DNA from: Escherichia phage phiWec179
Length of the DNA: 64,000 bases
Direction: 5' to 3' (one strand)
Sequence record: LC739533.1
In this document: positions 13,436-61,897 of the stretch, in pieces
How positions within the stretch are numbered: the first letter of the stretch is position 1
Layout: the number at the start of each line of letters is the position of its first letter
Made by a program: the position numbers and the translations under genes
Notes under the pieces: generated by a model
Seen by the model: the letters and a program-made list of their open reading frames with translations, nothing else
Told to the model about the DNA's origin: nothing
Database searches by the model: none

Positions 13436-15001
13436 TTAATTCGATAAGTTTGCTGCTGATGGATCAAGAGCCGAAACGCTGGTGGATGTACCTGTACCTG
13501 CGGTCGCCATACCGTCTCCAGAACGTGAAGTTTTATCTGGCATGAATGTCTCCATATATTCTACGAATTTATCCTTGTCAGAAACAATGTCGTCTGGTAT
13601 ACGATAATCAAAGCCTAACTTCTCTAAGAACTCGTTGATAATTTCCGCTGTAAGTGGAATAGCTCCTGCTGCAACAATCTGTTGGATCGCTTTAGCGTTT
13701 ACTTCAATATCAGGATCGCCCATTTCACCACTAACAAACTTCGGCATATCTTCATCGGAAAGGAAGATATTGTTTAAGCGAAGTGCTTGTGGGATCAATT
13801 GAGAGTTAATAGCTTCAACAACAATATCTACATCACGTTCAATGAAGTGTGAGAGCAGGGTCTGTTTATTATCGGACAATGCAAAGCTGCCAGCGTCCCC
13901 GTCACCCATTATCAATACACCCGCACCAAAACGGTTGTAAATATCCAGTTTACGTTGTTTGATCAGTTCTTGCGTATCAAACTGTTTACCAGCCCCTTCT
14001 ACACCTTGGAACACCAGGTCATACTGACGCATAACAGTGCCTTCATAAACGTCTGAAGGTAATACCATATATGCTTGCTCACCAGAGTGTAGGTTAGCAA
14101 TGTTTGCCTGGAGCACGCGTAAGGACTGTGCTTCATCTCCGGCAGGGTCAAGAGATGCGCGGTTAAGAATATCGCTCGGTACTTTCAGAACAGGCATACC
14201 GCCCAAATCTTTAGAAACACCGATAACTTCGAATTCTTGAATTAAAGATTTTTCACGCCAGCTACGATATACAGCCAACAGAGGTGACACACCCAGAGGA
14301 TTGTTTTCTGTGATATTGCTACCAACAAAAATAACCTTGTTCATGGGGATTTGACGTACACCCAGTTGTAGCTTACTATTACCTGGAGCCAACATAGTAT
14401 TGGTGATGTTCTGGTTTACCGAAATAACGGAGCGACCATCATCAGAATAGGTGAAAGGGTTTGACATATCCAAAGTATCTTGCGGTCGGAAAGCAAGCTT
14501 AGTGAGACGATAATAGCCATAGTATGGACTCTTCGGATCTTCGTCAAGTTCAAACACCTTTTCAGCAAATGCAAAACCGAACTGCTTATATGTAAGAAGA
14601 GATCTCACATACTGGCGTAATGGTGCTTGCATGTTGCGTAACATGTATTCAATAAACTTTGCAGCTTTTCTTGACTTGGCAGAGTTTACGTTGTATTTTA
14701 TTTTAAAGTCGAAAAATGCTCTGTCTACGAAAATGTATGTTGCATCAAGAGCGGTAGCAACATCTGGGTCTTCACCCATTTCCTTATAAGTACGGATGTT
14801 TTCAGGAAAGCGTGTTTCATACGGTTGCATGAAGTTAGTGAATGCTTTGATTGAGTTCAACCCAATCGTCCCGATTTCAGGAGAGAGAAGTAAACTCTTT
14901 TCTTTCTCTGCCTGTTTTGACGGAGAGAGAGCAGCTTTGTTCACTGCACTTTGTTTCCAGTAATCCGACTTCTTAGTGTACTGTCTTTTTTCTGTTGACA
15001 C
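13436..15001 (-). CDS. Portal protein (tentative)
   Basis: 521 aa ORF directly downstream of terminase large subunit; GTG start at 14999-15001 with GGAGGAAG RBS. Confidence 0.5.
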   Translation of the reverse strand: MSTEKRQYTKKSDYWKQSAVNKAALSPSKQAEKEKSLLLSPEIGTIGLNSIKAFTNFMQPYETRFPENIRTYKEMGEDPDVATALDATYIFVDRAFFDFKIKYNVNSAKSRKAAKFIEYMLRNMQAPLRQYVRSLLTYKQFGFAFAEKVFELDEDPKSPYYGYYRLTKLAFRPQDTLDMSNPFTYSDDGRSVISVNQNITNTMLAPGNSKLQLGVRQIPMNKVIFVGSNITENNPLGVSPLLAVYRSWREKSLIQEFEVIGVSKDLGGMPVLKVPSDILNRASLDPAGDEAQSLRVLQANIANLHSGEQAYMVLPSDVYEGTVMRQYDLVFQGVEGAGKQFDTQELIKQRKLDIYNRFGAGVLIMGDGDAGSFALSDNKQTLLSHFIERDVDIVVEAINSQLIPQALRLNNIFLSDEDMPKFVSGEMGDPDIEVNAKAIQQIVAAGAIPLTAEIINEFLEKLGFDYRIPDDIVSDKDKFVEYMETFMPDKTSRSGDGMATAGTGTSTSVSALDPSAANLSN

Positions 15002-15104
15002 TTTCTTCCTCCGGCACTGTGCTTAAAGATCAATAGGGCAAGGGTTAAATAAATTAACCCGCCCATAAAGTCATTGTACACTTTAAAGTAACTTTTGTCA
15101 ACAA

Positions 15105-17183
15105 TTATCTTCGACGAGGAGTACTTACAGTAGTGAAATGCCTGGAGTTCATGTTACTGTACCCAGTAGGTGCATTTGTTGTTGTAGGTATCGCTACAGC
15201 CTTGTGTGCCGTCTCTTTCGCCAGAGTGTTGAAGCAAGATGCTGCGGCATCTGGAAGGTCATCTTTAAGCATTGCTGTAGATCGTTCACCGTTAAAAGAT
15301 TCCAATTCTTTATAAAAGTGATTCAAAGTTTCAATGTTAGGAAATGAATCTTCTACGATATAAACAAAACCATTCTGACAGGCACTACTGAACGGCATGA
15401 AACGTTGAAGTTTCTTTTTGTTGCCTGGCATTGCGTCGGGTTTAACAACAAAACCTTCAACAATAAGTTTCTTAGCTGATTCCGTATATTCAATGAGTCC
15501 AGCACCAGACGGGTCTTTTGGAAGAACGATCTGAACATCTGGTCCATCAATCTTAGCCTGTTGGAGGATCAGGTTATCCCTGTCACCAGGTAAGCGTCGG
15601 AATCTTCCGAAAACTTTACTCTTCTCGTCTATAGCGTCGTAATCATAATCCCCGAAGATATAAATGTTCCCGTTTAGGTCTTTACCCATCTTAACCGATG
15701 CTGTATAGTCGGGATAACGATAACGTTCACTTGGAACGGATACAGCTTTATCCCATGCACGCATATACTTCATGTTGTTAGGAACATCTTTGTATTCTAT
15801 CTTGTGAAGCCATTCACGTTGGAAGAATGATTCCTCTTGAATACGGGCAAACCAACAACCATCCAGAAGCTGTGCTCGCTTGATCGCTGTCTGCGATTTA
15901 AGAGAAGCCAGGTATTTCGGGTTAAGGCGAATCAGTTCAGGGTTATCAAAGATCGTACCGCCGATAAACACAAACGTTTGAGGTTCGATCGTAACAATCT
16001 CACCAGTGTTTGGGTTCTCCATGAAACAGTTTTCAGGATACTTCTCTTTAAGTTCCTCTGCTGTGTCGGCAAATACAGGCTCATCATTTACAATAATGAA
16101 GTAGGTTTGTTTACCACACATATCTTCACGAGGATAACCGCCTTCGTCAAGATAAGGTAACACCCAGTTCAGTACCCAGCTATCCGCATCGGGGTTACAG
16201 GTACAGAGCATGAAAGATGTTTCTGACTCGGAACGCATACGACCGAGAAGATAAAGCATCTCGTACTGGGTGAAATGGGTGAGTTCGTCAAAACCAACCA
16301 TACTGTACTGTGTACCCTGATGGTTAGTCTCGGCTGTAACGTTATCGTTCTCCAGATGGTCAAACTTCAAAGTACCACCGTTAGTGGCCTCAAAGATAAT
16401 GTCCATCGTACTTTCTTTTACGTGTGGTTGTAAAGGAAGATACAAACGTTTAGCTTCTGTAAACAAACCCCCTGGCTTACGGTGTGCAGTAGTGTTCTTA
16501 CGGAATAAGATACCACCGAACAAAGGATCTTTATAGGCAAACTTAAGGGCTTTTAGCAGAAGCAGACGAGACTTGCCGCTATTGCCAGTAACGAAGCAGT
16601 GATTGCCCCGTCTAAGGACAATATAGCTACTTGGAGTTTCAAAGCAATATTTCTTATCATCAGATGTAATAACCTCGTGTATTTTTAAATAAGTGTTTTG
16701 TTTGCCTGGGATGTTAAATGGAACGCGCTTACCGAACGGATCTTCAATGTATCCTTTCAGTGGTGCTCCTGCTTGTTGCAGAGCAATAAGATCTCCCACA
16801 GCAATCTCAAAATGTTTTTTGGATTTCTTTTTCTTGTAAAAGACGAAACGATGCTCCATACTCAACTCTTGGAACACTCCTGCACCATTAGTGATTCGGT
16901 ACAGGTTGTCATCTTTCATATCGTATTCTACGAAGTAAGGTGTGACCAACTCTAAGCGTTTTCTCTTAGGATTATACTGGTAGATATCTTCTCCACTGTA
17001 CTGACTTATTTGTTTCCAACCATCACGGGTAAGATACTCTGTTTCAGCAGATACACAACCTGCGGCACCACCGTAAATCATAACTTCCGGCATTAGATCC
17101 ATTGCCAGCGTCTGTTTACCTGGTTGAGCCTTTACTTCGATATCAGCGCCAGCTAAACTGCCAGCCGCTTTTTTCTTAGCCAC
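15105..17183 (-). CDS. terL: Terminase large subunit, intein-containing precursor
   Basis: N-terminal YGGAAG ... SGKS split Walker A, Walker B-like VGFDELTHF, nuclease-type C-terminal region; GTG start with AAGGAGG RBS. Confidence 0.8.
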   Translation of the reverse strand: MAKKKAAGSLAGADIEVKAQPGKQTLAMDLMPEVMIYGGAAGCVSAETEYLTRDGWKQISQYSGEDIYQYNPKRKRLELVTPYFVEYDMKDDNLYRITNGAGVFQELSMEHRFVFYKKKKSKKHFEIAVGDLIALQQAGAPLKGYIEDPFGKRVPFNIPGKQNTYLKIHEVITSDDKKYCFETPSSYIVLRRGNHCFVTGNSGKSRLLLLKALKFAYKDPLFGGILFRKNTTAHRKPGGLFTEAKRLYLPLQPHVKESTMDIIFEATNGGTLKFDHLENDNVTAETNHQGTQYSMVGFDELTHFTQYEMLYLLGRMRSESETSFMLCTCNPDADSWVLNWVLPYLDEGGYPREDMCGKQTYFIIVNDEPVFADTAEELKEKYPENCFMENPNTGEIVTIEPQTFVFIGGTIFDNPELIRLNPKYLASLKSQTAIKRAQLLDGCWFARIQEESFFQREWLHKIEYKDVPNNMKYMRAWDKAVSVPSERYRYPDYTASVKMGKDLNGNIYIFGDYDYDAIDEKSKVFGRFRRLPGDRDNLILQQAKIDGPDVQIVLPKDPSGAGLIEYTESAKKLIVEGFVVKPDAMPGNKKKLQRFMPFSSACQNGFVYIVEDSFPNIETLNHFYKELESFNGERSTAMLKDDLPDAAASCFNTLAKETAHKAVAIPTTTNAPTGYSNMNSRHFTTVSTPRRR
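16581..17057 (-). mobile_element. Mini-intein inserted in terminase P-loop (159 aa)
   Basis: Insert begins with Cys (CVSAETEY...), ends ...CFVTGN followed by Ser; removing it restores YGGAAGSGKS. No homing endonuclease domain evident. Confidence 0.6.
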
Positions 17184-27770: not shown

Positions 27771-27994
27771 TGGCAACAACATTCTATTTTGAAGGTAGTG
27801 AGAAAAAGACTTCCATTACCTTTCAAAGGGGTACACCAGCAGAAGATTTCTTATGGATGATAATCGATCATCTGAAAAGCGAAGGTATTCACCATATAGA
27901 CGAGTATTTCGCAGAGTCTACGGACTGGCAAAGCGTTGTTATGGAAGATGTTATTTTCGAACTACACCATATTATTAAGGAGGAGGGAATTTGA
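27770..27994 (+). CDS. Hypothetical protein
   Basis: Start at ATG 27770 overlapping upstream stop. Confidence 0.4.
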   Translation: MATTFYFEGSEKKTSITFQRGTPAEDFLWMIIDHLKSEGIHHIDEYFAESTDWQSVVMEDVIFELHHIIKEEGI

Positions 27995-29106
27995 AACAGA
28001 CTAATCAGACACTTTACGGTAAAGACTCAAATGGTAAACTGAAGCAATGGACTGTTTTCACAGACGGGGCAACAGTTACCGTAGCTCACGGTAAAGTTGG
28101 TGGGAAGATTACACAAAAATCATACGAGGCAGAAGCTAAAAACACTGGACGTGCAAATGCAACCACTCCAGAAGAACAAGCTGAAGCTGAAGCTTTTGCC
28201 AAATGGACTAAGCAACTGAAGAATGGTTATTATAAAACCACGGAAGAAGCAGAGAACCATGTTCCATCTACACCAATGAAATGCCAGGACTATAAAGATT
28301 TTGCGCATAAGGTGGTCTTCCCTGGGTATGCACAATACAAACTGAATGGCTTACGTTCAATGATCAACATGAAGGGCGAATGTTTGTCTAAAGCTGGAGA
28401 AGTTTACAAACTCCCTCCGCACTGGCAAGGTATTCCAAACTTCATCAGCGAAGTTGTTGGTCATCCTCTGGATGGGGAAGTGTTCGCTGGTCTTGGTGTT
28501 CTTAGTTTGCAACAGATCAACAGCGCATGGAAAAAGCACAATGAGAATACACCGCTCCTCAACTATTATGTTTACGATGTTCCTGTGGCAGATATGCCAT
28601 TTGAGAAGCGTGTTGAAGTATTAGCGGCTCTTAAAGCTGTAGCCGAAGATAACGGTTTGGACGAACTGATCTGTGTCGTACATACAGAGTATATTGAAAA
28701 TCAAGAACAGTTGGATGCATTTTATGCTAAAGCTTTACTTGAAAAAGCTGAAGGTATCGTGTATCGTAATGCTCATGGTGTCTATGAGTTTGATAAACGT
28801 TCCTATGACGTGATCAAACGAAAACCGCGCCAGACTTTGGAAGTTAAAGTTATTTCTATGCGTTCTGATAAAAATAACGATGGGGTGTTGACAGGTGAGA
28901 TGGAGAATGGTAAACTTGTTGAGTTCTTGATGCGAAAAGATGCTCACGAAACTATCAACTACCGTAAAGCAGAGAATGCCGAAACTTTGATTGGTCAGTT
29001 TGTTGAGATCGAGTATGAAGAATTTTCTGATGAAGGTATCCCAACTAAACCAGTCGGTGTACGTCTTCGTAAAATGATCCCAGGGACTTGGGAGCCAGCA
29101 GAGTAA
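27991..29106 (+). CDS. ATP-dependent DNA ligase-like nucleotidyltransferase
   Basis: Motif I-like KLNGLR, motif III-like LDGEVFA, motif IV EGIVYR, motif V VIKRK in correct order; apparent TTG start after AGGAGG RBS. Confidence 0.55.
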   Translation: MKQTNQTLYGKDSNGKLKQWTVFTDGATVTVAHGKVGGKITQKSYEAEAKNTGRANATTPEEQAEAEAFAKWTKQLKNGYYKTTEEAENHVPSTPMKCQDYKDFAHKVVFPGYAQYKLNGLRSMINMKGECLSKAGEVYKLPPHWQGIPNFISEVVGHPLDGEVFAGLGVLSLQQINSAWKKHNENTPLLNYYVYDVPVADMPFEKRVEVLAALKAVAEDNGLDELICVVHTEYIENQEQLDAFYAKALLEKAEGIVYRNAHGVYEFDKRSYDVIKRKPRQTLEVKVISMRSDKNNDGVLTGEMENGKLVEFLMRKDAHETINYRKAENAETLIGQFVEIEYEEFSDEGIPTKPVGVRLRKMIPGTWEPAE

Positions 29107-29116
29107 AGGAGGTTGT

Positions 29117-29305
29117 ATGTTGATTTTAACAGTGTATATCTTGTTGTCAGTATTGGCTGTATGCTGTATGTTCCTTAGCTGTTGCAAAGATAAGACACTT
29201 TTAGTCTCTGTAGCAAAAACTATAGATGCGATAATGGCGGGTATCGGGTACGCAGCAGTGATCTACATTTTCTGTTTTTACTTTGTGGCTGAATGGGTTA
29301 ATTAA
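29117..29305 (+). CDS. Small membrane protein
   Basis: 62 aa, almost entirely hydrophobic helices. Confidence 0.45.
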   Translation: MLILTVYILLSVLAVCCMFLSCCKDKTLLVSVAKTIDAIMAGIGYAAVIYIFCFYFVAEWVN

Positions 29306-29314
29306 GGGGGATTT

Positions 29315-29503
29315 ATGGGTGTTGAAGTTTTTCTGATTCTTTTGTTGCTTTCTATTGTGGCTTGTGGTATTATTATGGCTTCTACATTCCCATTAAACAC
29401 TTGGTGGCGAAAATTAAGTCTGATGCTTATATACTGTGCAGCAGGTGCACAAATGGGTTCGGTTGTTATCTACTTGACTGAACTCGCAAAAAATTATTTT
29501 TAA
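29315..29503 (+). CDS. Small membrane protein
   Basis: 62 aa, two predicted hydrophobic helices. Confidence 0.45.
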   Translation: MGVEVFLILLLLSIVACGIIMASTFPLNTWWRKLSLMLIYCAAGAQMGSVVIYLTELAKNYF

Positions 29504-29516
29504 TAAGGAGAACAAG

Positions 29517-30245
29517 ATGATCGAGAACTTTTTTAAAGAGATTAAGGTAGATGTGGACTTCTATAAGAAAGCAGCTAAACATGTAATTGATTGGAATGCA
29601 AAAGCGCGTGGCGGAGAACAGCCGGAATTTGACCAGGCGATGTTTGTTTCCCAGATCGGGTTTGTTCGTGAAGAACTGAAAGAGTATGAAGAAGCCGCTA
29701 AAACTAATGATCACGTTGAACTCTTGGATGCAGCCGCCGATGTATTCGTTGTTTCCAGTTACCTGGTGTACATGTTCTTTGGTGAAGAAGCCACTCTGAA
29801 GTTCCTTGAGAATCAGGTTGGTACTGTCTTCACAGAAACAATCTACACCGATTTCGACAATATGGAAGCTACCTTCACTGATCCTGTTCAGATGGCAGTA
29901 TTGAGTGCTGGTATTATGAACCTTGCGCGTGATACGCTGGTGCGTTCTGTTTATGCAGACAAAAAGATTATGAAAGAAGTTCTTGACAGTAATGATTCTA
30001 AGTACCCTACTAAGAAGCAACTGTTGGCTGTATGGAATACTTCCGATATTGATCTTGCAATTTCACAAGAATGCGCAGCGATTGAAGAGCGTAATGCCAA
30101 TCGTCCTGAAGGTGCTTACACTGGCGTACATGCTACGTACAATGAAAAACAGAAAGTTTATGTGTTCTTTGATGATAAAGGTAAGATCATGAAGCCTTCT
30201 ACCTTTGTTAAACCTGATATTGCAAAAATCATTGCTAAGAAATAA
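29517..30245 (+). CDS. MazG-like nucleotide pyrophosphohydrolase (tentative)
   Basis: REELKEYEEA ... LLDAAADVF acidic helix pair resembling the MazG EExxE...D motif. Confidence 0.4.
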   Translation: MIENFFKEIKVDVDFYKKAAKHVIDWNAKARGGEQPEFDQAMFVSQIGFVREELKEYEEAAKTNDHVELLDAAADVFVVSSYLVYMFFGEEATLKFLENQVGTVFTETIYTDFDNMEATFTDPVQMAVLSAGIMNLARDTLVRSVYADKKIMKEVLDSNDSKYPTKKQLLAVWNTSDIDLAISQECAAIEERNANRPEGAYTGVHATYNEKQKVYVFFDDKGKIMKPSTFVKPDIAKIIAKK

Positions 30246-30302: not shown

Positions 30303-31181
30303 ATGTTCGTTAAATCTTTTAAATCTGCACTTCCGATGGTTGCTGGTGATAATGCTTCTGTAGCGTCTCTGAACGAGTTCAACGAATTTCCGATTGACTT
30401 TGTACCTGCTGAAGGATCTCAAGCCCATACTATTGGTCTGGTTCGTTTTGAAGATGACGGGAAATACGTAAAAGAGTTCTCCGATCTGGAACTCCTTCAG
30501 GTTGGTCAATCTGTCAAGAAAGTTGACAAGAAGAAAGTTAAACGTCTTCTTAATGAACGCCTGGAAGAAATTCGAGTAGATATGGAAAGCCAGGGTCAAG
30601 AATTCTTTGTCGCTAAAGAAGACATGAAAGCCCTGAAAGCTGATATTGAATTTGGTCTGCTTCCAGAAACTGAACCAGAAGATTTCTTCAATTATGTAGT
30701 TCTGGATAAAACAACCAACCTGTTCTATGTGATCAACGGCAGTAAGAAAGTAGCGGAAGCTATTACTTCCTTCTTCCGTAATGTTTTAGGGACTTTCCCT
30801 TCTGTAGGCTTTAGTGTTCACGAAGAAGCGATTATCAAAGGTTTTGGTACATTGCTGAAAGAACACGAAGCTGATCGCCTTACTCTTGGCAACTATATTA
30901 AACTGGAAGATAGTGAAGGTGTTGTTGTCTGGACGAAAGAATCTCTTTACGATTCCAAAGCAATCGAACTTAAAGAAGACGGTAAAGATGTTGTCGCTAT
31001 TGGCTTGGAGTACGATGGTGTGCTGGAGTTTGTAGTAGATAAAGAGTTGAAGTTGAGTAAGCTTCGTTTCCCTAAATACTTCAACGATGACGAAGGTTCT
31101 ATTGAAGCATCTACTCTACTTTGCTTCAACGAGATTCGTGGTTTGATGGCAGATCTGACGAAAGCAACTATTCTTAAATAA
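30303..31181 (+). CDS. Hypothetical protein (RdgC-like size and pattern, tentative)
   Basis: 292 aa; weak resemblance to recombination-associated RdgC; not verified. Confidence 0.3.
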   Translation: MFVKSFKSALPMVAGDNASVASLNEFNEFPIDFVPAEGSQAHTIGLVRFEDDGKYVKEFSDLELLQVGQSVKKVDKKKVKRLLNERLEEIRVDMESQGQEFFVAKEDMKALKADIEFGLLPETEPEDFFNYVVLDKTTNLFYVINGSKKVAEAITSFFRNVLGTFPSVGFSVHEEAIIKGFGTLLKEHEADRLTLGNYIKLEDSEGVVVWTKESLYDSKAIELKEDGKDVVAIGLEYDGVLEFVVDKELKLSKLRFPKYFNDDEGSIEASTLLCFNEIRGLMADLTKATILK

Positions 31182-31506: not shown

Positions 31507-32598
31507 TTGCACAAGTATGTTGACCTAAACACTGTTGTGGTTATTGACTACGATCAGGTTGCTTTCCAAGCGGCTTCTGCTGTAGAGAAGCGTCGTATCT
31601 TGGCTAAACATGCAGCCTCCGGTTCCGAAAAAGAATTTGACAATAAGACAGAGTTTTGGGGTAAGAGTAAGACTGAAATTGGTGGTTGGCTTGGAGCATT
31701 GAATGCTAAACGAGAAGAGCAGGGTAAACGTCCTTTCACCAAAGAAGAGTTTGAAATTATTGATGTGCAATACGTACCAGACACTTTGTCACATGCTTTT
31801 CAAGCAGCTAAAACAAAAGTTCAAGCGATCTTAAAGCATTTAAGTTTAGAAAAATATTGCGGAGTTATCGGTGTAGGGAAAACCTTCCGACATGATTTTA
31901 AGATGCCTACCGAATATAAATCTGAACGATCTGACATTAAGCCTTTACAACTATCCGATACCAAAGACTACTTGGTAGAGCAACACAATGGGGATGTTGT
32001 TACGGTTATCGAAGCCGATGATGAATTAGAGAAGTACGGTTTCCAAGGCTACAAAGATTACAAACGCACAGGCAAATTCTCTTACATCCTGGCGTCAATA
32101 GATAAAGACAGCCTATCCACTCCAAGCATCCTCTTTAACTTCTACAAAGAAGACGGTGTATTCAAGAATCCCGATATCATTCTGATAGACGAGTCCATTG
32201 GAGATTTGTGGATTGTTGAGAAGGGCAAGAAAAAAGAGGTTAAGGGTTGGGGATCTTTCTGGTTGGCCTATCAGATGCTGATGGGAGATAAAACGGATAG
32301 CATCCGTCCTTACCAGGATTTTGGTATTAAGTTTGGAGATGTTTCTTGTTTCAACTTGATATCTGAATGCAAGACCCAAGCTGAACTTTTCCAGAAAGTG
32401 AAAGATACATTTTATACCTGGTTCCCTGAAGGTGTTAAATTTACATCTTGGGATGGGGAAGCAGTAGAATTAACAACCGATCAATGGATCGAGACAATAT
32501 TCCAACTCGTTTACATGAAACGTTGGGATAACGATAACACAACTTTTGAGAGTATGCTTCAAGCGTACATTTCACAACAGGAGATAATTAATGAGTAA
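31507..32598 (+). CDS. 5'-3' exonuclease / flap endonuclease-like (tentative)
   Basis: N-terminal VVVIDYDQVAFQAA resembles FEN/PIN motif; LMGDKTDSIRPYQDFGIKFGDV resembles H3TH LxGDxxDNIPG..GIG; apparent TTG start. Confidence 0.45.
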   Translation: MHKYVDLNTVVVIDYDQVAFQAASAVEKRRILAKHAASGSEKEFDNKTEFWGKSKTEIGGWLGALNAKREEQGKRPFTKEEFEIIDVQYVPDTLSHAFQAAKTKVQAILKHLSLEKYCGVIGVGKTFRHDFKMPTEYKSERSDIKPLQLSDTKDYLVEQHNGDVVTVIEADDELEKYGFQGYKDYKRTGKFSYILASIDKDSLSTPSILFNFYKEDGVFKNPDIILIDESIGDLWIVEKGKKKEVKGWGSFWLAYQMLMGDKTDSIRPYQDFGIKFGDVSCFNLISECKTQAELFQKVKDTFYTWFPEGVKFTSWDGEAVELTTDQWIETIFQLVYMKRWDNDNTTFESMLQAYISQQEIINE

Positions 32599-33556
32599 AT
32601 TAACAACAGAGCAGAAAGTAGAAATCATTAGCCTTAAAACACAAGGTCTTTCTTCTCGCCAGATCGCTGCATTAGTTCTCGGTAGCGCGACAAAGAAAAG
32701 CACAGTGAACGATTTCTTGGTTCGTGAAAACTCTGCCAATGCTGGAACTCCTAAAGTTAAACCAGAAGGTCCAGTAGTTAAAATTATTGACGTTGAAACA
32801 GCACCAGAAATTGCGTATACTTTCCGTCGATTCAAAGCTTTTATCTCTCCTGATCAGGTGATTCGCCGTGGTTACTTGCTGTCCTACTCTTCCGCAGATC
32901 TGCGTACTGCTGAAGTTGAAGGTAAGAACTTGGCAAGCTACCCTCTGTTCGATATTGATCACACAGACGATTGGGAACTGTGTCAAGACATTTGGAAGCT
33001 TCTGGATGAAGCTGATATCGTTGTAGCTCACAACGGTGTTAAATTTGACCGTGCTTATATTAACCAGCGTTTCGCATACCACGGAATGGTTCCTCCGTCG
33101 AACTATGTTGTGGTCGATACTCTGAAAGCGGCTAAGAAACAATTCTTCTTACCGTCTAATTCTCTGAAAGAGATGGGTGCTTACTTCGAAACAGAGAGCG
33201 AAAAACTTGATAACGAAGGGTTCCCATTGTGGAAGGCTTGTTGTGAAGGTGATCGTGATGCGTTTGAACGTATGCAAACTTACAACGATGGTGATGTAGT
33301 TTCTCTGCGAGATCTGTACATTAAGATTCTGGCATGGATTCCGCAACATCCTAACGTATCTGCTTACTACGAAGATACCAAAGTTCGTTGCTCTCGTTGT
33401 GGCAGTGCACATGTGAATGTACTGGCAGATAAGAAGTACCACACAGCAGTAAGTTCTTTTGATATTATTCGTTGTGAAGATTGTGGTGGACTTTCTCGTG
33501 GACGTGTTAACAGCCGTTCCAAAGATAAGATGAAAAACACCATTGTAGGGATTTAA
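32591..33556 (+). CDS. DEDDh-type 3'-5' exonuclease with N-terminal HTH and C-terminal zinc ribbon
   Basis: IIDVETAPE (Exo I), VVAHNGVKFDRAYI (Exo II), YNDGDV (Exo III); C-terminal CSRCG ... CEDCGG. Confidence 0.55.
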   Translation: MSKLTTEQKVEIISLKTQGLSSRQIAALVLGSATKKSTVNDFLVRENSANAGTPKVKPEGPVVKIIDVETAPEIAYTFRRFKAFISPDQVIRRGYLLSYSSADLRTAEVEGKNLASYPLFDIDHTDDWELCQDIWKLLDEADIVVAHNGVKFDRAYINQRFAYHGMVPPSNYVVVDTLKAAKKQFFLPSNSLKEMGAYFETESEKLDNEGFPLWKACCEGDRDAFERMQTYNDGDVVSLRDLYIKILAWIPQHPNVSAYYEDTKVRCSRCGSAHVNVLADKKYHTAVSSFDIIRCEDCGGLSRGRVNSRSKDKMKNTIVGI

Positions 33557-35534: not shown

Positions 35535-36152
35535 ATGAAGATAGTTTGTGATTGGGATCTGGTGGTTGCTCCACTGGATGTTGCTTGGCTGGAATGGTTG
35601 GTTAAAGTTAGTGGAGATTGTGTAGGCTTCTCCGAAGCTGTCAAGAATGTTGACTACGATCTTACTAAATACTTCCCAGGTTTCCGTGAGAAGTTTAACA
35701 TCGATCCTTACGGCTTTCTGGATAATCCCCATCTCTATGACACGATGGGATGTATCAAACCTATGGCTGACTTCTTAGAAGGTATTGTGAAAGAGGGCGA
35801 TAATGCACTTATTGCAAGTGTGACTAAAGGTGGACACCTTAGCTCAAAACACAAACATGTTTTAAGAACTTTGCCAACCATTGATTTTGGTAAAGGTTCT
35901 GGTAACGGTTTCTTTGCCACAAAAGAAAAATACCTGTTGCCTTGTGATATTGCCATAGATGATAGGGCAGAAAACCTGTTGTATTTTCCAGATCATGTTG
36001 TTAAGATTTATTACAATACGATGTATAAAGATTTGTATTTGGAAGAATTAAAAAAGAAACCAAACGTAGTTGTCACGGGTTTGTACAATCAAGCAGAAAC
36101 CTGTTGGCAGGTTTATTCAATGTTAAAAGAACGAGGAGAAATTAATGTCTAA
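35535..36152 (+). CDS. HAD-superfamily hydrolase, possible 5'-deoxynucleotidase
   Basis: N-terminal CDWDLVV (DxDxV motif I-like) and downstream IDD motif; located just upstream of thyX. Confidence 0.35.
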   Translation: MKIVCDWDLVVAPLDVAWLEWLVKVSGDCVGFSEAVKNVDYDLTKYFPGFREKFNIDPYGFLDNPHLYDTMGCIKPMADFLEGIVKEGDNALIASVTKGGHLSSKHKHVLRTLPTIDFGKGSGNGFFATKEKYLLPCDIAIDDRAENLLYFPDHVVKIYYNTMYKDLYLEELKKKPNVVVTGLYNQAETCWQVYSMLKERGEINV

Positions 36153-37134
36153 TATCAGTGCACAAGTCATCGCCCAATCCATCAACGAAGAAGGACAGAT
36201 GATCACAACTTTCGAACTGGAATATCCACGCATCATCCATTCGGAACTGATGACACACCGCCTATTCTCCCGAAACGCTGCTTCAAGCCGCGCTATTCCC
36301 GTCAAGACTTTGATTGAGATGGTTCGCAACGAACCTGCGGCACCTGTTCGATTTGGTCAACACCAACCTGGGATGCAGGATCAAGGTGTAGAGTATGATG
36401 CTCTCATTGGGGTAGGTTATTCGAGTCGTGAGTGGTGGAATTTAGCTGCACTTAGTGCGGCAAACTTTGCAGAACAAATGGCGGAAGCTGGTTACGCGAA
36501 GCAGGTTTGTAATCGCCTTCTTGAACCATTCCAAAAAATGAAGACGGTTCTGACAGCAACCGAATATGAAAACTTCTGGTGGCTACGTGATGATGCTGAT
36601 GCTGATCCGACTATTGAAGCTTTAGCCAAAATTATGTTTGAAGCCTATGAAGCTTCTACTCCAGAACTACTGGCTCCAGGTCAATGGCATACGCCTTACG
36701 TAGATCATGTCTACGAGAACATTGGTTTGGAAGGTGATGATGTTTGGGTATTCAGTGGGTATAGCACTACAGATGAAAATGGCAATACTATCATGCTGTC
36801 GCTGGAAGAAGCACTTGCAATCTCTTCTTCTTGTTGCGCACAAGTGAGCTATCGTCGTCTGAATGCAACTAAAGATAAAGCTTTGGACATTTATGGACGT
36901 TTGCTTACCGGACGTAAAGTTCACGCTTCCCCTTTTGAACATCAGGCAACCCCAATGAAAAAAATGGATTTGTCAGGCTTAAAACGACAGGAGCATGGTG
37001 TTAATATTCCTCCGTTCCCGATTTCTTGGGAACCAGGCGTTACTCATGTAGATCGTAATGGTCAATTCTGGTCGGGGAATATGAAGGGTTGGGTACAACA
37101 TCGTCAACTTTTAGACAATCATACTAAATGGTGA
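36145..37134 (+). CDS. thyX: Flavin-dependent thymidylate synthase ThyX
   Basis: ThyX signature THRLFSRNAASSRAIP (RHR...SxR). Confidence 0.8.
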   Translation: MSNISAQVIAQSINEEGQMITTFELEYPRIIHSELMTHRLFSRNAASSRAIPVKTLIEMVRNEPAAPVRFGQHQPGMQDQGVEYDALIGVGYSSREWWNLAALSAANFAEQMAEAGYAKQVCNRLLEPFQKMKTVLTATEYENFWWLRDDADADPTIEALAKIMFEAYEASTPELLAPGQWHTPYVDHVYENIGLEGDDVWVFSGYSTTDENGNTIMLSLEEALAISSSCCAQVSYRRLNATKDKALDIYGRLLTGRKVHASPFEHQATPMKKMDLSGLKRQEHGVNIPPFPISWEPGVTHVDRNGQFWSGNMKGWVQHRQLLDNHTKW

Positions 37135-61272: not shown

Positions 61273-61719
61273 TCATAAATCCTCCGGTGTACCAGCACGT
61301 AAAGCAGCTAAAGGTTCGGCTACAGCTTCCAGGGCGGCTTCAATTTGATCTTCAATCACATCACGAACCATTGCAATACGCTCATCAATATGCACAACGA
61401 AAGCATCGCTATAAGCACCAACTAACGTATTGTAAAATGTTTCTTGTGCGCTTAACGCGCCGCTAAGAATGAAATTACGTTGATCTTCAGGTAGTTGTTG
61501 GTGCTCTTCATATTTGGCAAACGTTTCACGGTTGATTTCCAACAGAGTCCCCATCATAAGGTCAAACTGCAAATCTTTGTCCGAGGGATTTCCCATTACA
61601 ATGGTATTGTAAATGTTCAGCAAGCTGGTGCTAACACGAGCATTGTTTTCTACACCTTCCATCTGACGGAAAATAGTTAACACATCAATAGTTTCTTCAA
61701 TCTTTTCGTTTTGGTTCAT
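61273..61719 (-). CDS. Hypothetical protein
   Basis: 148 aa; RBS AGAGGAGAACG. Confidence 0.45.
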   Translation of the reverse strand: MNQNEKIEETIDVLTIFRQMEGVENNARVSTSLLNIYNTIVMGNPSDKDLQFDLMMGTLLEINRETFAKYEEHQQLPEDQRNFILSGALSAQETFYNTLVGAYSDAFVVHIDERIAMVRDVIEDQIEAALEAVAEPLAALRAGTPEDL

Positions 61720-61897
61720 ATACGTTCTCCTCTATTATTGGAAGATATCCTGTAGTTTTACAGGGATTGCACTCATAAAGCTGGCCTACATCAACCATAA
61801 CGTAGCCTAAACCTCCACAATATGGACACTCCATAGGGGTACAAGGTACAGGTGTTGTTACGGTTACATCCACAACACGGGCAATTCTCATTCCCAT
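61697..61897 (-). CDS. Zinc-ribbon small protein
   Basis: CPYCGGLGY ... CNPCKTTGY (CxxCxGxG pairs). Confidence 0.45.
   Translation of the reverse strand: MGMRIARVVDVTVTTPVPCTPMECPYCGGLGYVMVDVGQLYECNPCKTTGYLPIIEENVYEPKRKD

What the first reader, a model, noticed from the sequence alone, without database searches (positions are those of the whole stretch)
27991..29106. Ligase-like nucleotidyltransferase with Asn in place of Asp in motif I
Motifs III, IV and V match ATP-dependent ligases, but motif I reads K-L-N-G-L-R rather than KxDGxR, and a roughly 100-aa N-terminal domain precedes it. The enzyme could be a DNA ligase, RNA ligase or repair enzyme with altered nucleotide specificity; the gene appears to start with TTG.
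Basis: partly seen in the sequence, partly recalled or inferred. Interest (0 to 1): 0.35.

Follow-up and report, generated by a model that had tools for sequence, protein, structure and literature searches.

The report
ASFV-type phage ATP-dependent DNA ligase

Summary
Window 27991..29106 (+) is a 371-aa ORF with a TTG start and a strong Shine-Dalgarno site. It carries K117-L-N-G-L-R and intact ligase motifs III, IIIa, IV, V and VI, preceded by a ~94-aa N-terminal domain.

It is not an enzyme of unclear class. It matches PF01068 and PHROG 114 (ATP-dependent DNA ligase). The window is an Escherichia phage of the Stephanstirmvirinae group, 100% identical at this locus to phiWec181/186, and near-identical genes are already annotated as ATP-dependent DNA ligase.

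The closest solved structure is the African swine fever virus ligase (AsfvLIG): profile E 8e-26, and the AlphaFold model superposes over all three domains with TM 0.78. AsfvLIG also has KxNGxR (Asn153), binds ATP and seals DNA nicks.

Among 263 relatives that carry the N-terminal domain, motif I has N in 158 and D in 104, and the residue switches often. N tends to occur with loss of the canonical Arg-Phe pair in the OB domain.

Nothing supports an RNA-ligase function or a changed cofactor.

Verdict: a new member of a known kind, of low-to-moderate interest.

The parts
27978..27983 (+). Shine-Dalgarno sequence AGGAGG, within AAGGAGGAGGG, 7 nt upstream of the TTG start
   Evidence: Sequence read directly.
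27991..29106 (+). Ligase CDS, 371 aa, TTG start, TAA stop. It overlaps the upstream ORF's stop by 4 nt.
   Evidence: An ATG sits at the same codon in PD06 and inny. Annotated as ATP-dependent DNA ligase in PsgM04F, PD06 and inny.
27991..28272 (+). N-terminal DNA-binding domain (aa 1-94): a WGR-like beta-sheet plus a long helix (aa 60-77), equivalent to the AsfvLIG NTD
28036..28113 (+). Core of the WGR-like domain, K16-T41 (KLKQWTVFTDGATVTVAHGKVGGKIT). H33-G34-K35 stands where WGR domains have W-G-R.
   Evidence: hhalign aligned region. W20 and G34 are invariant in the family.
28138..28182 (+). Conserved loop and helix start, K50-N-T-G-R-A-N-A-T-T-P-E-E-Q-A64. It aligns to AsfvLIG K85-A99, which includes the DNA-contacting K89/K90/N91 loop tip and Gln98.
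   Evidence: HMM alignment. N51, N56, Q63 and A64 are invariant. DNA contacts are described in PMC6344480.
28273..28830 (+). Nucleotidyltransferase (adenylation) domain, aa 95-280
   Evidence: PF01068 covers aa 96-278. Structural match to the adenylation domains of DNA ligases.
28339..28356 (+). Motif I, K117-L-N119-G-L-R122. K117 is the predicted AMP-accepting lysine. N119 (AAT, 28345-28347) replaces the consensus Asp.
   Evidence: K117 and G120 are invariant in 263 relatives, and position 119 is N in 158, D in 104 and E in 1. It aligns to AsfvLIG K151-R-N153-G-V-R.
28465..28488 (+). Motif III, PLDGEVFA (D161 and E163 invariant)
28507..28509 (+). L173, the nick-site residue equivalent to AsfvLIG Leu211 and human LIG1 Phe635
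   Evidence: L173-Q174 aligns to AsfvLIG L211-Q212 and is invariant in the close family.
28564..28584 (+). Motif IIIa, YYVYDVP (Y195 invariant)
28747..28770 (+). Motif IV, AEGIVYRN (E254 and G255 invariant)
28807..28830 (+). Motif V, DVIKRKPR (K276 and K278 invariant)
28831..29103 (+). OB-fold domain, aa 281-371
   Evidence: The AF2 model superposes on the AsfvLIG OB domain. PF14743 is weak in the query (E 0.013) but hits 100 of 129 diverse relatives.
29035..29073 (+). Motif VI region, GIPTKPVGVRLRK. T352-K353 (29044-29049) sit where human LIG1 has Arg871-Phe872 and AsfvLIG has Leu402-Gln403. R360 is near-invariant.
   Evidence: Ungapped HMM alignment to AsfvLIG. Column counts and covariation with motif I.

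Best explanation
The ORF encodes the phage's own ATP-dependent DNA ligase. It has three domains: a WGR-like N-terminal DNA-binding domain, a nucleotidyltransferase domain and an OB domain. This is the same architecture as the African swine fever virus ligase.

The mechanism below is inferred from the conserved chemistry of the family and was not assayed here.
1. K117 attacks the alpha-phosphate of ATP to form ligase-AMP, assisted by motif VI (R360) on the OB domain.
2. The three domains close around nicked duplex DNA. [quoted passage not shown]
3. AMP is passed to the 5'-phosphate at the nick.
4. The 3'-OH attacks and seals the nick.

Asn119 does the job of the usual motif I Asp without the negative charge. 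This appears tolerated because its usual salt-bridge partner, an OB-domain Arg, is absent: this protein has Thr352-Lys353 there.

The likely biological role is sealing Okazaki fragments and recombination or repair nicks in phage DNA. The gene sits in a co-directional block of nucleotide-metabolism and recombination genes.
For: Family assignment:
- PF01068 above the gathering score; PHROG 114 at E 3e-75; all NCBIfam hits are DNA ligases.
- Near-identical genes are annotated as ATP-dependent DNA ligase.
- All catalytic residues are invariant across relatives.

Relation to AsfvLIG:
- A family profile hits AsfvLIG first, at E 7.9e-26, over profile positions 38-363.
- The AF2 model (pLDDT 93.3) matches the closed AsfvLIG:DNA complexes over about 410 columns with TMq 0.78. 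T4, Lig E and Chlorella virus ligases rank lower.
- AsfvLIG has K151-R-N153-G-V-R, binds ATP, ligates nicks, and needs its NTD for DNA binding and ligation (PMC6344480).

Asn119 as a family variant:
- N is a common family state: 108 of the 120 nearest homologs and 158 of 263 overall.
- At least 33 N/D switches are needed on a crude tree.
- All 28 members with Arg at position 352 have Asp and none has Asn (Fisher p 5e-13). Among representatives below 50% identity, D pairs with F353 and N with non-F353 (odds ratio 10, p 1.5e-9).

Context:
- Neighbours are a metallophosphoesterase, a MazG-like protein, RdgC, a 3'-5' exonuclease, NT5C and ThyX.
- This is the only full-length ligase annotated in the 99%-identical genome of PsgM04F.
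- Inteins sit inside motif I in some relatives, which is typical of indispensable active sites.
Against: - No biochemical data exist for this protein or any close relative in the literature I could search.
- In Chlorella virus ligase the motif I Asp is reported as important for catalysis after adenylylation (cited in PMC4797309 and PMC6035275), so the effect of Asn on rate is unknown.
- The replicative role is inferred from gene context and from the absence of another annotated ligase. The host LigA could contribute.
- The covariation statistics ignore phylogenetic non-independence.
Confidence: 0.9

Rival explanations
1. It is a specialised low-fidelity or lesion/modification-tolerant repair ligase, like the error-prone AsfvLIG, and not a general replicative ligase. 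On this view the non-canonical nick-site residues (N119, L173, T352, K353) relax discrimination at the nick.
For: All four positions that AsfvLIG's authors single out as non-canonical are also non-canonical here, and two are identical (Asn, Leu). AsfvLIG is error-prone (PMC6344480). Recombination and repair genes (RdgC, exonucleases) lie next to the gene.
Against: The AsfvLIG authors could not tie low fidelity to these residues, because the mutants simply lost activity. This is the only full-length ligase annotated in the near-identical genome, which argues for a general role. N/D flips often in the family, suggesting near-neutrality.
Confidence: 0.15
2. It is an RNA ligase or RNA-repair enzyme, because KxNG occurs in archaeal Rnl3 and fungal Trl1 RNA ligases.
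For: KxNG is the motif I of MthRnl and fungal tRNA ligase (PMC4797309). 30 of 129 diverse relatives give weak cross-hits to Pfam RNA_ligase.
Against: The query itself has no RNA-ligase hit. It has the OB domain with motif VI that DNA ligases and capping enzymes carry in place of the RNA-ligase C-terminal modules. All top sequence and fold matches are DNA ligases bound to nicked DNA. No end-healing kinase/phosphatase partner is annotated next to it.
Confidence: 0.03
3. The Asp-to-Asn change alters cofactor specificity (NAD+, GTP or another nucleotide).
For: None beyond the unusual residue itself.
Against: AsfvLIG has the same Asn and was crystallised with ATP. There is no NAD-ligase domain Ia, zinc finger, HhH or BRCT module. 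Closely related family members interchange N and D, which is unlikely if cofactor choice depended on this residue.
Confidence: 0.03
4. It is a catalytically crippled or decaying ligase homolog.
For: Motif I deviates from the consensus, and the start codon is TTG.
Against: Every other catalytic residue is intact and invariant. The N variant is conserved across hundreds of phage and metagenome sequences down to 45% identity. The gene has a strong Shine-Dalgarno site and an ATG at the same codon in relatives. The confident compact model has pLDDT 93.
Confidence: 0.03

Closest known systems
African swine fever virus DNA ligase (AsfvLIG, NP419L; PDB 6IMJ/6IMK/6IML/6IMN)
   Same: Same three-domain layout (mixed alpha/beta N-terminal DNA-binding domain, adenylation domain, OB domain), TMq 0.78 over about 410 columns. 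It is the best profile hit in the PDB, E 8e-26. Motif I is KxNGxR in both. Leu stands at the human-LIG1 Phe635 position in both. The NTD loop KNxG[KR]xNxTT...QA is conserved and includes the DNA-contacting Gln.
   Different: Only about 21-22% identity. AsfvLIG is 419 aa, with a longer first half of the NTD that does not align by sequence. The OB-domain nick residues are Leu402-Gln403 in AsfvLIG and Thr352-Lys353 here. AsfvLIG belongs to a eukaryotic virus with a base-excision-repair role, and its error-proneness is measured, whereas nothing is measured for the phage enzyme.
Phage ligases of PHROG 114 with KxDGxR (FelixO1-like Moogle, rV5-like FV3, Mydovirus KpS8, Nankokuvirus KPP10, Vibrio phage PWH3a-P1)
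   Same: Same N-terminal domain, same catalytic core and OB domain, full-length homology at 25-36% identity.
   Different: They keep Asp in motif I and usually Gln/Arg-Phe in the OB domain. Several (FV3, KpS8, KPP10, KIL1) carry an insertion of tens of residues after motif III that is absent here.
Bacterial WGR-NTase-OB_2 ATP-dependent ligases (delta-proteobacteria, Planctomycetia, third ligase of Prochlorococcus marinus), as listed in the review PMC7470946
   Same: An N-terminal WGR-type domain fused to a minimal NTase-OB_2 core. The NTD here has a WGR-like fold.
   Different: In those proteins Pfam recognises the WGR domain. Here it does not, and the domain carries an extra conserved loop. 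I did not compare this protein directly with those bacterial ligases.
Minimal ligases Lig E (PDB 4D05, 6GDR) and Chlorella virus ligase (2Q2T)
   Same: Closest NTase-OB_2 catalytic cores after AsfvLIG.
   Different: They lack any N-terminal DNA-binding domain and have KxDG.

Membership tests
ATP-dependent DNA ligases (covalent nucleotidyltransferase superfamily; Pfam PF01068 + OB domain) | Adenylation-domain profile match above the curated threshold | tested here: met
   PF01068 at 40.4 bits against a cut-off of 26.2, aa 96-278. All 129 diverse relatives match.
ATP-dependent DNA ligases (covalent nucleotidyltransferase superfamily; Pfam PF01068 + OB domain) | Motif I lysine nucleophile in K-x-x-G-x-R | tested here: met
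   K117, G120 and R122. K and G are invariant in 263 relatives.
ATP-dependent DNA ligases (covalent nucleotidyltransferase superfamily; Pfam PF01068 + OB domain) | Motifs III, IIIa, IV and V with their catalytic Asp/Glu, aromatic, Glu-Gly and Lys-x-Lys residues | tested here: met
   D161/E163, Y195, E254/G255 and K276/K278 are invariant.
ATP-dependent DNA ligases (covalent nucleotidyltransferase superfamily; Pfam PF01068 + OB domain) | C-terminal OB domain carrying motif VI | tested here: met
   The model's OB domain superposes on the OB domains of AsfvLIG, ChV and Lig E. R360 is near-invariant. The PF14743 hit is sub-threshold in the query (E 0.013) but present in 100 of 129 relatives.
ATP-dependent DNA ligases (covalent nucleotidyltransferase superfamily; Pfam PF01068 + OB domain) | Formation of lysyl-AMP with ATP and sealing of 3'-OH/5'-PO4 nicks in duplex DNA | not testable with these tools
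   Needs biochemistry. Shown for the structural homolog AsfvLIG (PMC6344480).
Canonical KxDGxR subset of DNA ligases (human LIG1, Chlorella virus, T4, T7) | Asp at motif I position 3, paired with an OB-domain Arg-Phe at the nick | tested here: not met
   Here the residues are N119 and T352-K353. This is a consensus feature and not a requirement for family membership, because AsfvLIG is an active ligase with Asn153 and Leu402-Gln403.
AsfvLIG-type ligases (mixed alpha/beta NTD + adenylation + OB) | Whole-protein structural correspondence, including the NTD | tested here: met
AsfvLIG-type ligases (mixed alpha/beta NTD + adenylation + OB) | The four 'unique' nick-site residues Asn153, Leu211, Leu402 and Gln403 | tested here: inconclusive
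   Two of the four are identical (N119, L173). The other two are non-canonical but different (T352, K353).
AsfvLIG-type ligases (mixed alpha/beta NTD + adenylation + OB) | Error-prone ligation of 3'-mismatched nicks | not testable with these tools
   Requires ligation assays.
WGR domain (Pfam PF05406) for the N-terminal domain | WGR fold (antiparallel sheet packed on a C-terminal helix) | tested here: met
WGR domain (Pfam PF05406) for the N-terminal domain | Sequence-profile membership | tested here: inconclusive
   The query has no Pfam WGR hit. 9 of 43 close NTDs hit weakly, best E 0.0038, and 1 of 129 diverse members does. hhalign against a WGR alignment gives 93.6% probability, E 2e-7, over only 26 columns. 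The NTD profile hits 2RA8 at E 9e-4.
WGR domain (Pfam PF05406) for the N-terminal domain | Eponymous Trp-Gly-Arg signature | tested here: not met
   The aligned tripeptide is H33-G34-K35. Family variants are mostly H/Y/W-G-K/R/Q.
ATP-dependent RNA ligases (Rnl1-Rnl5, Trl1) | RNA-ligase adenylyltransferase profile plus family-specific C-terminal or N-terminal modules, with no OB/motif VI domain | tested here: not met
   The query has no RNA_ligase hit at E<=1. An OB domain with motif VI is present.
NAD+-dependent DNA ligases (LigA) | Domain Ia, Zn finger, HhH and BRCT modules | tested here: not met
   None is detected by Pfam or NCBIfam.

The most novel reading that the evidence does not exclude
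Two linked readings remain open.

1. The Asn119/Leu173/Thr352/Lys353 nick-site constellation, which recurs in a large phage clade and parallels the Asn/Leu/Leu/Gln set of AsfvLIG, marks a natural class of DNA ligases with relaxed discrimination at the nick, tolerant of mismatches or modified bases.
2. Their N-terminal domain is a diverged WGR break-sensing module homologous to that of PARPs. In that case the NTD fold described as 'completely novel' for AsfvLIG would be an ancient, widespread phage and bacterial DNA-break-binding domain.
Probability: 0.2. Interest if true: 0.45.

Novelty: new member of a known kind. Interest (0 to 1): 0.25.

Why it matters
For genome annotation, the gene can be named without hesitation. 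phiWec181/186 list it as a hypothetical protein, but it is the phage's ATP-dependent DNA ligase.

Three side results have modest value for ligase specialists.
- The two features described as unique to the African swine fever virus ligase (Asn in motif I and the N-terminal DNA-binding domain) are common in a very large phage and metagenomic family: 3,541 clusters at 50% identity with E<=1e-30.
- That N-terminal domain has a WGR-like fold.
- Asn in motif I goes together with loss of the Arg-Phe nick-site pair of the OB domain.

These points bear on claims that the AsfvLIG NTD is a virus-specific drug target. They also point to a pool of natural ligase variants that could be screened for altered fidelity.

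Tried and rejected
- **RNA ligase reading:** rejected. The query has no RNA-ligase profile hit, and it has an OB domain with motif VI.
- **NAD+-dependent ligase:** rejected. No LigA modules are present.
- **Pseudogene or inactive homolog:** rejected on conservation.
- **Second ligase in the phage:** the only other 'DNA ligase' label in the near-identical PsgM04F genome is a 64-aa Cys4 zinc-ribbon ORF (window 61700..61891, minus strand), which is not a ligase.
- **Pfam WGR on the query NTD:** no hit. The WGR link rests on fold and on profile-profile comparison.
- **AFDB50 fold search of the NTD:** the library was not available, so BFVD was used instead.
- **Primary mutational paper on the Chlorella virus ligase motif I Asp (Sriskanda and Shuman, NAR 2002):** not held. 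I therefore cite only secondary statements.
- **Promoter and terminator scan around the gene:** counts no higher than in shuffled sequence.
- **Base composition:** uniform at GC about 0.41, so there is no sign of recent import.
- **Rhizobium phage ligase structure 9FZX:** it has a T4-like helical DNA-binding domain and is not this architecture.
Full report
**Observation.** The window holds one long ORF at 27991..29106 on the + strand, 371 aa. It begins with TTG at 27991. AGGAGG lies at 27978-27983, 7 nt upstream, and the ORF overlaps the end of the preceding ORF (27755..27994) by four bases. The protein carries these motifs:
- Motif I, K117-L-N-G-L-R, nt 28339-28356, with the Asn119 codon AAT at 28345-28347.
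- Motif III, PLDGEVFA.
- Motif IIIa, YYVYDVP.
- Motif IV, AEGIVYRN.
- Motif V, DVIKRKPR.
- A motif VI region, GIPTKPVGVRLRK.

About 94 residues precede the nucleotidyltransferase domain. The TTG start is real. In the 85%-identical genes of phages PD06 and inny the same codon is ATG, and more distant homologs start at the same alignment position.

**Source and annotation.** The locus is 100% identical to Escherichia phages phiWec181 and phiWec186, which are about 154 kb, and 99.1% identical to 'Pseudomonas phage' PsgM04F. Relatives at 85-89% protein identity belong to Stephanstirmvirinae (Justusliebigvirus PD06, inny). The phiWec records call the gene a hypothetical protein. PsgM04F, PD06, inny and AV126 call it an ATP-dependent DNA ligase.

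**Family assignment.**
- Pfam PF01068 (ATP-dependent DNA ligase adenylation domain) matches aa 96-278 above the gathering score, and the OB_2 domain matches weakly.
- PHROG 114, 'ATP-dependent DNA ligase', matches aa 2-361 at E 3e-75.
- All NCBIfam hits are DNA ligases, best to the Lig E type.
- 750 phage genomes hold a homolog.
- A profile search of 1.84 billion cluster representatives finds 18,601 relatives at E<=1e-3 and 3,541 at E<=1e-30. The best 150 are nearly all full-length matches of 350-400 aa that include the N-terminal domain.

**Closest solved structure.** A profile of 54 family members hits the African swine fever virus ligase (AsfvLIG, 6IMJ) first, at E 7.9e-26. The alignment covers profile positions 38-363, that is, the second half of the N-terminal domain, the adenylation domain and the OB domain.

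An AlphaFold2 model has mean pLDDT 93.3. It matches the closed AsfvLIG:DNA complexes over about 410 alignment columns with TM 0.78. T4 ligase, Lig E and Chlorella virus ligase score lower and match only the catalytic core.

AsfvLIG motif I is K151-R-N153-G-V-R. Its authors describe Asn153 and Leu211 (adenylation domain) and Leu402 and Gln403 (OB domain) as unique active-site residues. They also describe the NTD as a novel DNA-binding fold that is essential for DNA binding and ligation, and the enzyme was crystallised with ATP (PMC6344480).

**How unusual is Asn in motif I?**
- Of the 120 nearest homologs (45-99% identity), 108 have KLNGxR and 12 have KLDGxR.
- In a MAFFT alignment of 263 NTD-bearing relatives, the position is N in 158, D in 104 and E in 1, while K117 and G120 are invariant.
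- Among cluster representatives below 50% identity, D is about twice as frequent as N.
- Named phage groups outside Stephanstirmvirinae all have KxDG: FelixO1-like Moogle, rV5-like FV3, KpS8, KPP10, PWH3a-P1, KIL1, VA-RY-3 and Marchewka.
- On a crude UPGMA tree, at least 33 N/D changes are needed. The tree is approximate, but the position is clearly labile.

This pattern argues against a switch of substrate class or cofactor.

**Covariation at the nick site.** The AsfvLIG paper explains that in human LIG1 the motif I Asp570 forms a salt bridge with Arg871 of the OB domain under the nick, flanked by Phe872 and Phe635. The ungapped HMM alignment gives these equivalences:

| Human LIG1 | AsfvLIG | This protein |
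|---|---|---|
| Asp570 | Asn153 | Asn119 |
| Phe635 | Leu211 | Leu173 |
| Arg871-Phe872 | Leu402-Gln403 | Thr352-Lys353 |

Across the 263 relatives:
- 123 combine N119 with T352-K353 and L173.
- D goes mainly with Q/R352-F353.
- 24 members reproduce the full human set D/F/R/F.
- All 28 members with Arg352 have Asp and none has Asn, Fisher p 5e-13.
- In the representatives below 50% identity, D/F353 versus N/non-F353 gives an odds ratio of 10, p 1.5e-9.

These tests ignore shared ancestry, so the p-values are upper bounds on significance. The pattern still fits a simple reading: Asn is acceptable when the Arg partner is absent.

**The N-terminal domain.** Modelled alone (pLDDT 90.3), it is a four-strand antiparallel sheet followed by a long helix (aa 60-77).
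- The matched segment of 2RA8 is a bona fide Pfam WGR domain, E 3e-18.
- By sequence, the NTD profile hits AsfvLIG at E 2.9e-4 and 2RA8 at E 9.2e-4 in the PDB.
- hhalign against an alignment of WGR proteins gives 93.6% probability, E 2e-7, but over only 26 columns. This is the core KxW..V...G..V.V.HGK.GGK, where H-G-K stands in place of W-G-R.
- Pfam's WGR model itself does not detect the query and only weakly detects a few relatives.

I conclude that the NTD has a WGR-like fold and is probably a diverged WGR domain. It carries an added conserved loop, K50-N-x-G-R-x-N-x-T-T...Q63-A64. This loop aligns with AsfvLIG residues 85-99, including the Lys89/Lys90/Asn91 loop tip that fits the DNA major groove and Gln98 that hydrogen-bonds the nicked strand. 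N51, N56, Q63 and A64 are invariant.

A 2020 review already lists bacterial ATP-dependent ligases with an annotated WGR domain fused to an NTase-OB_2 core. The same review treats the AsfvLIG NTD as unique and AsfvLIG as a singleton in its similarity network (PMC7470946). Yutin and Koonin placed the ASFV ligase among bacterial and phage ligases in 2009 (PMC2806865). In BFVD the NTD also matches the N-termini of DNA ligases from pithovirus-like and Solivirus metagenomic giant viruses, and a WGR protein of phage Atu_ph07. The phage-ASFV connection is thus known in outline. The specific correspondences (NTD, Asn, Leu) and the WGR-like fold of the NTD were not stated in the papers I could read.

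**Genomic context.** The gene lies in a tightly packed, co-directional block:
- A calcineurin-like phosphoesterase (25937-26482).
- Small ORFs.
- The ligase.
- Two 62-aa hydrophobic ORFs.
- A MazG-like pyrophosphohydrolase (29517-30245).
- RdgC (30303-31181).
- A 363-aa protein called an exonuclease in PsgM04F (31507-32598).
- An RNase-H-fold exonuclease (32591-33556).
- An NT5C-type deoxyribonucleotidase (35535-36152).
- ThyX (36145-37134).

No promoter or terminator signal stands out, and base composition is uniform. In the 99%-identical genome of PsgM04F this is the only full-length ligase annotated. A 64-aa 'DNA ligase' there is a Cys4 zinc-ribbon protein (window 61700..61891, minus strand). 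In several distant relatives an intein with a LAGLIDADG endonuclease is inserted inside motif I (KL[DN]G^CR), as inteins typically are in indispensable active sites.

**Mechanism.** The shown parts are family membership, conservation of all catalytic residues, the architecture and its match to a DNA-bound ligase structure, and the gene context. The inferred parts are as follows. K117 is adenylylated by ATP with help from motif VI. The NTD, adenylation and OB domains encircle nicked duplex DNA, with the NTD helix in the major groove. AMP is transferred to the 5'-phosphate and the 3'-OH seals the nick. Asn119 fills the position of the usual Asp without its charge. The enzyme serves phage replication, recombination and repair.

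**Rivals.** An RNA-ligase function, a changed cofactor and an inactive homolog each find no support (details in the rival section). A specialised low-fidelity role like that of AsfvLIG cannot be excluded. It is the most interesting open reading, but even for AsfvLIG the link between these residues and fidelity was not demonstrated.

**Verdict.** This is a real, correctly observed feature with an ordinary explanation: a new member of a known kind of enzyme. Interest is low to moderate. It is raised slightly by the WGR-like identity of the AsfvLIG-type N-terminal domain and by the Asn/OB-domain covariation.

Noticed in passing
window 61700..61891 (- strand): A 64-aa ORF with two CxxC pairs (zinc ribbon, CPYCGGLGY...CNPCKTTGY). 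Its 94%-identical ortholog in PsgM04F is annotated 'DNA ligase'. It is far too small to be a ligase, so this is probably an annotation carried over from a PHROG name.
   Followed up: partly
related proteins P0124, P0147, P0159, P0176, P0192, P0200 (metagenomic relatives, not in the window): Members of about 700-785 aa carry an intein with a LAGLIDADG homing endonuclease inserted inside ligase motif I, between Gly and the next residue (KL[DN]G^C...HN^CR).
   Followed up: partly
L001/L002-L004 (OR584014.1, 'Pseudomonas phage PsgM04F'): At the ligase locus, a phage recorded as infecting Pseudomonas coronafaciens is 99.1% identical to E. coli phages phiWec181/186. The host assignment of one of them looks doubtful.
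   Followed up: no
window 29117..29305 and 29315..29503 (+): Two adjacent 62-aa, strongly hydrophobic ORFs (predicted small membrane proteins) lie directly downstream of the ligase, inside a DNA-metabolism gene block.
   Followed up: no
window 31507..32598 (+): A second TTG-initiated gene (363 aa). It is called 'exonuclease' in PsgM04F but has no Pfam match at E<=0.001.
   Followed up: partly
L006, L007, L008, L010 (ligases of FV3, KpS8, KPP10, KIL1): These related phage ligases carry an insertion of tens of residues right after the conserved LQxI segment that follows motif III. It is absent from the window's protein and from AsfvLIG.
   Followed up: no
PsgM04F 13530-16670 and 93619-96894 (the latter maps to roughly window 42.5-45.8 kb; mapping not verified): Four glycosyltransferase genes lie next to the primase/helicase and DNA polymerase genes. 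A dTDP-rhamnose / nucleotide-sugar epimerase set and several DNA methyltransferases are also present. This could relate to DNA or surface glycan modification.
   Followed up: no
L007 (Klebsiella phage KpS8) and PsgM04F 80846-81649: A Sir2-family NAD-dependent deacetylase gene lies immediately upstream of the ligase in KpS8 and is also present elsewhere in the PsgM04F genome.
   Followed up: no
protein P0228 (399 aa, metagenomic): This relative shares AsfvLIG's exact Asn + Leu-Gln nick-site combination and is among the nearest sequences to AsfvLIG (37% identity over shared columns). It may mark the lineage from which the asfarvirus ligase derives.
   Followed up: no
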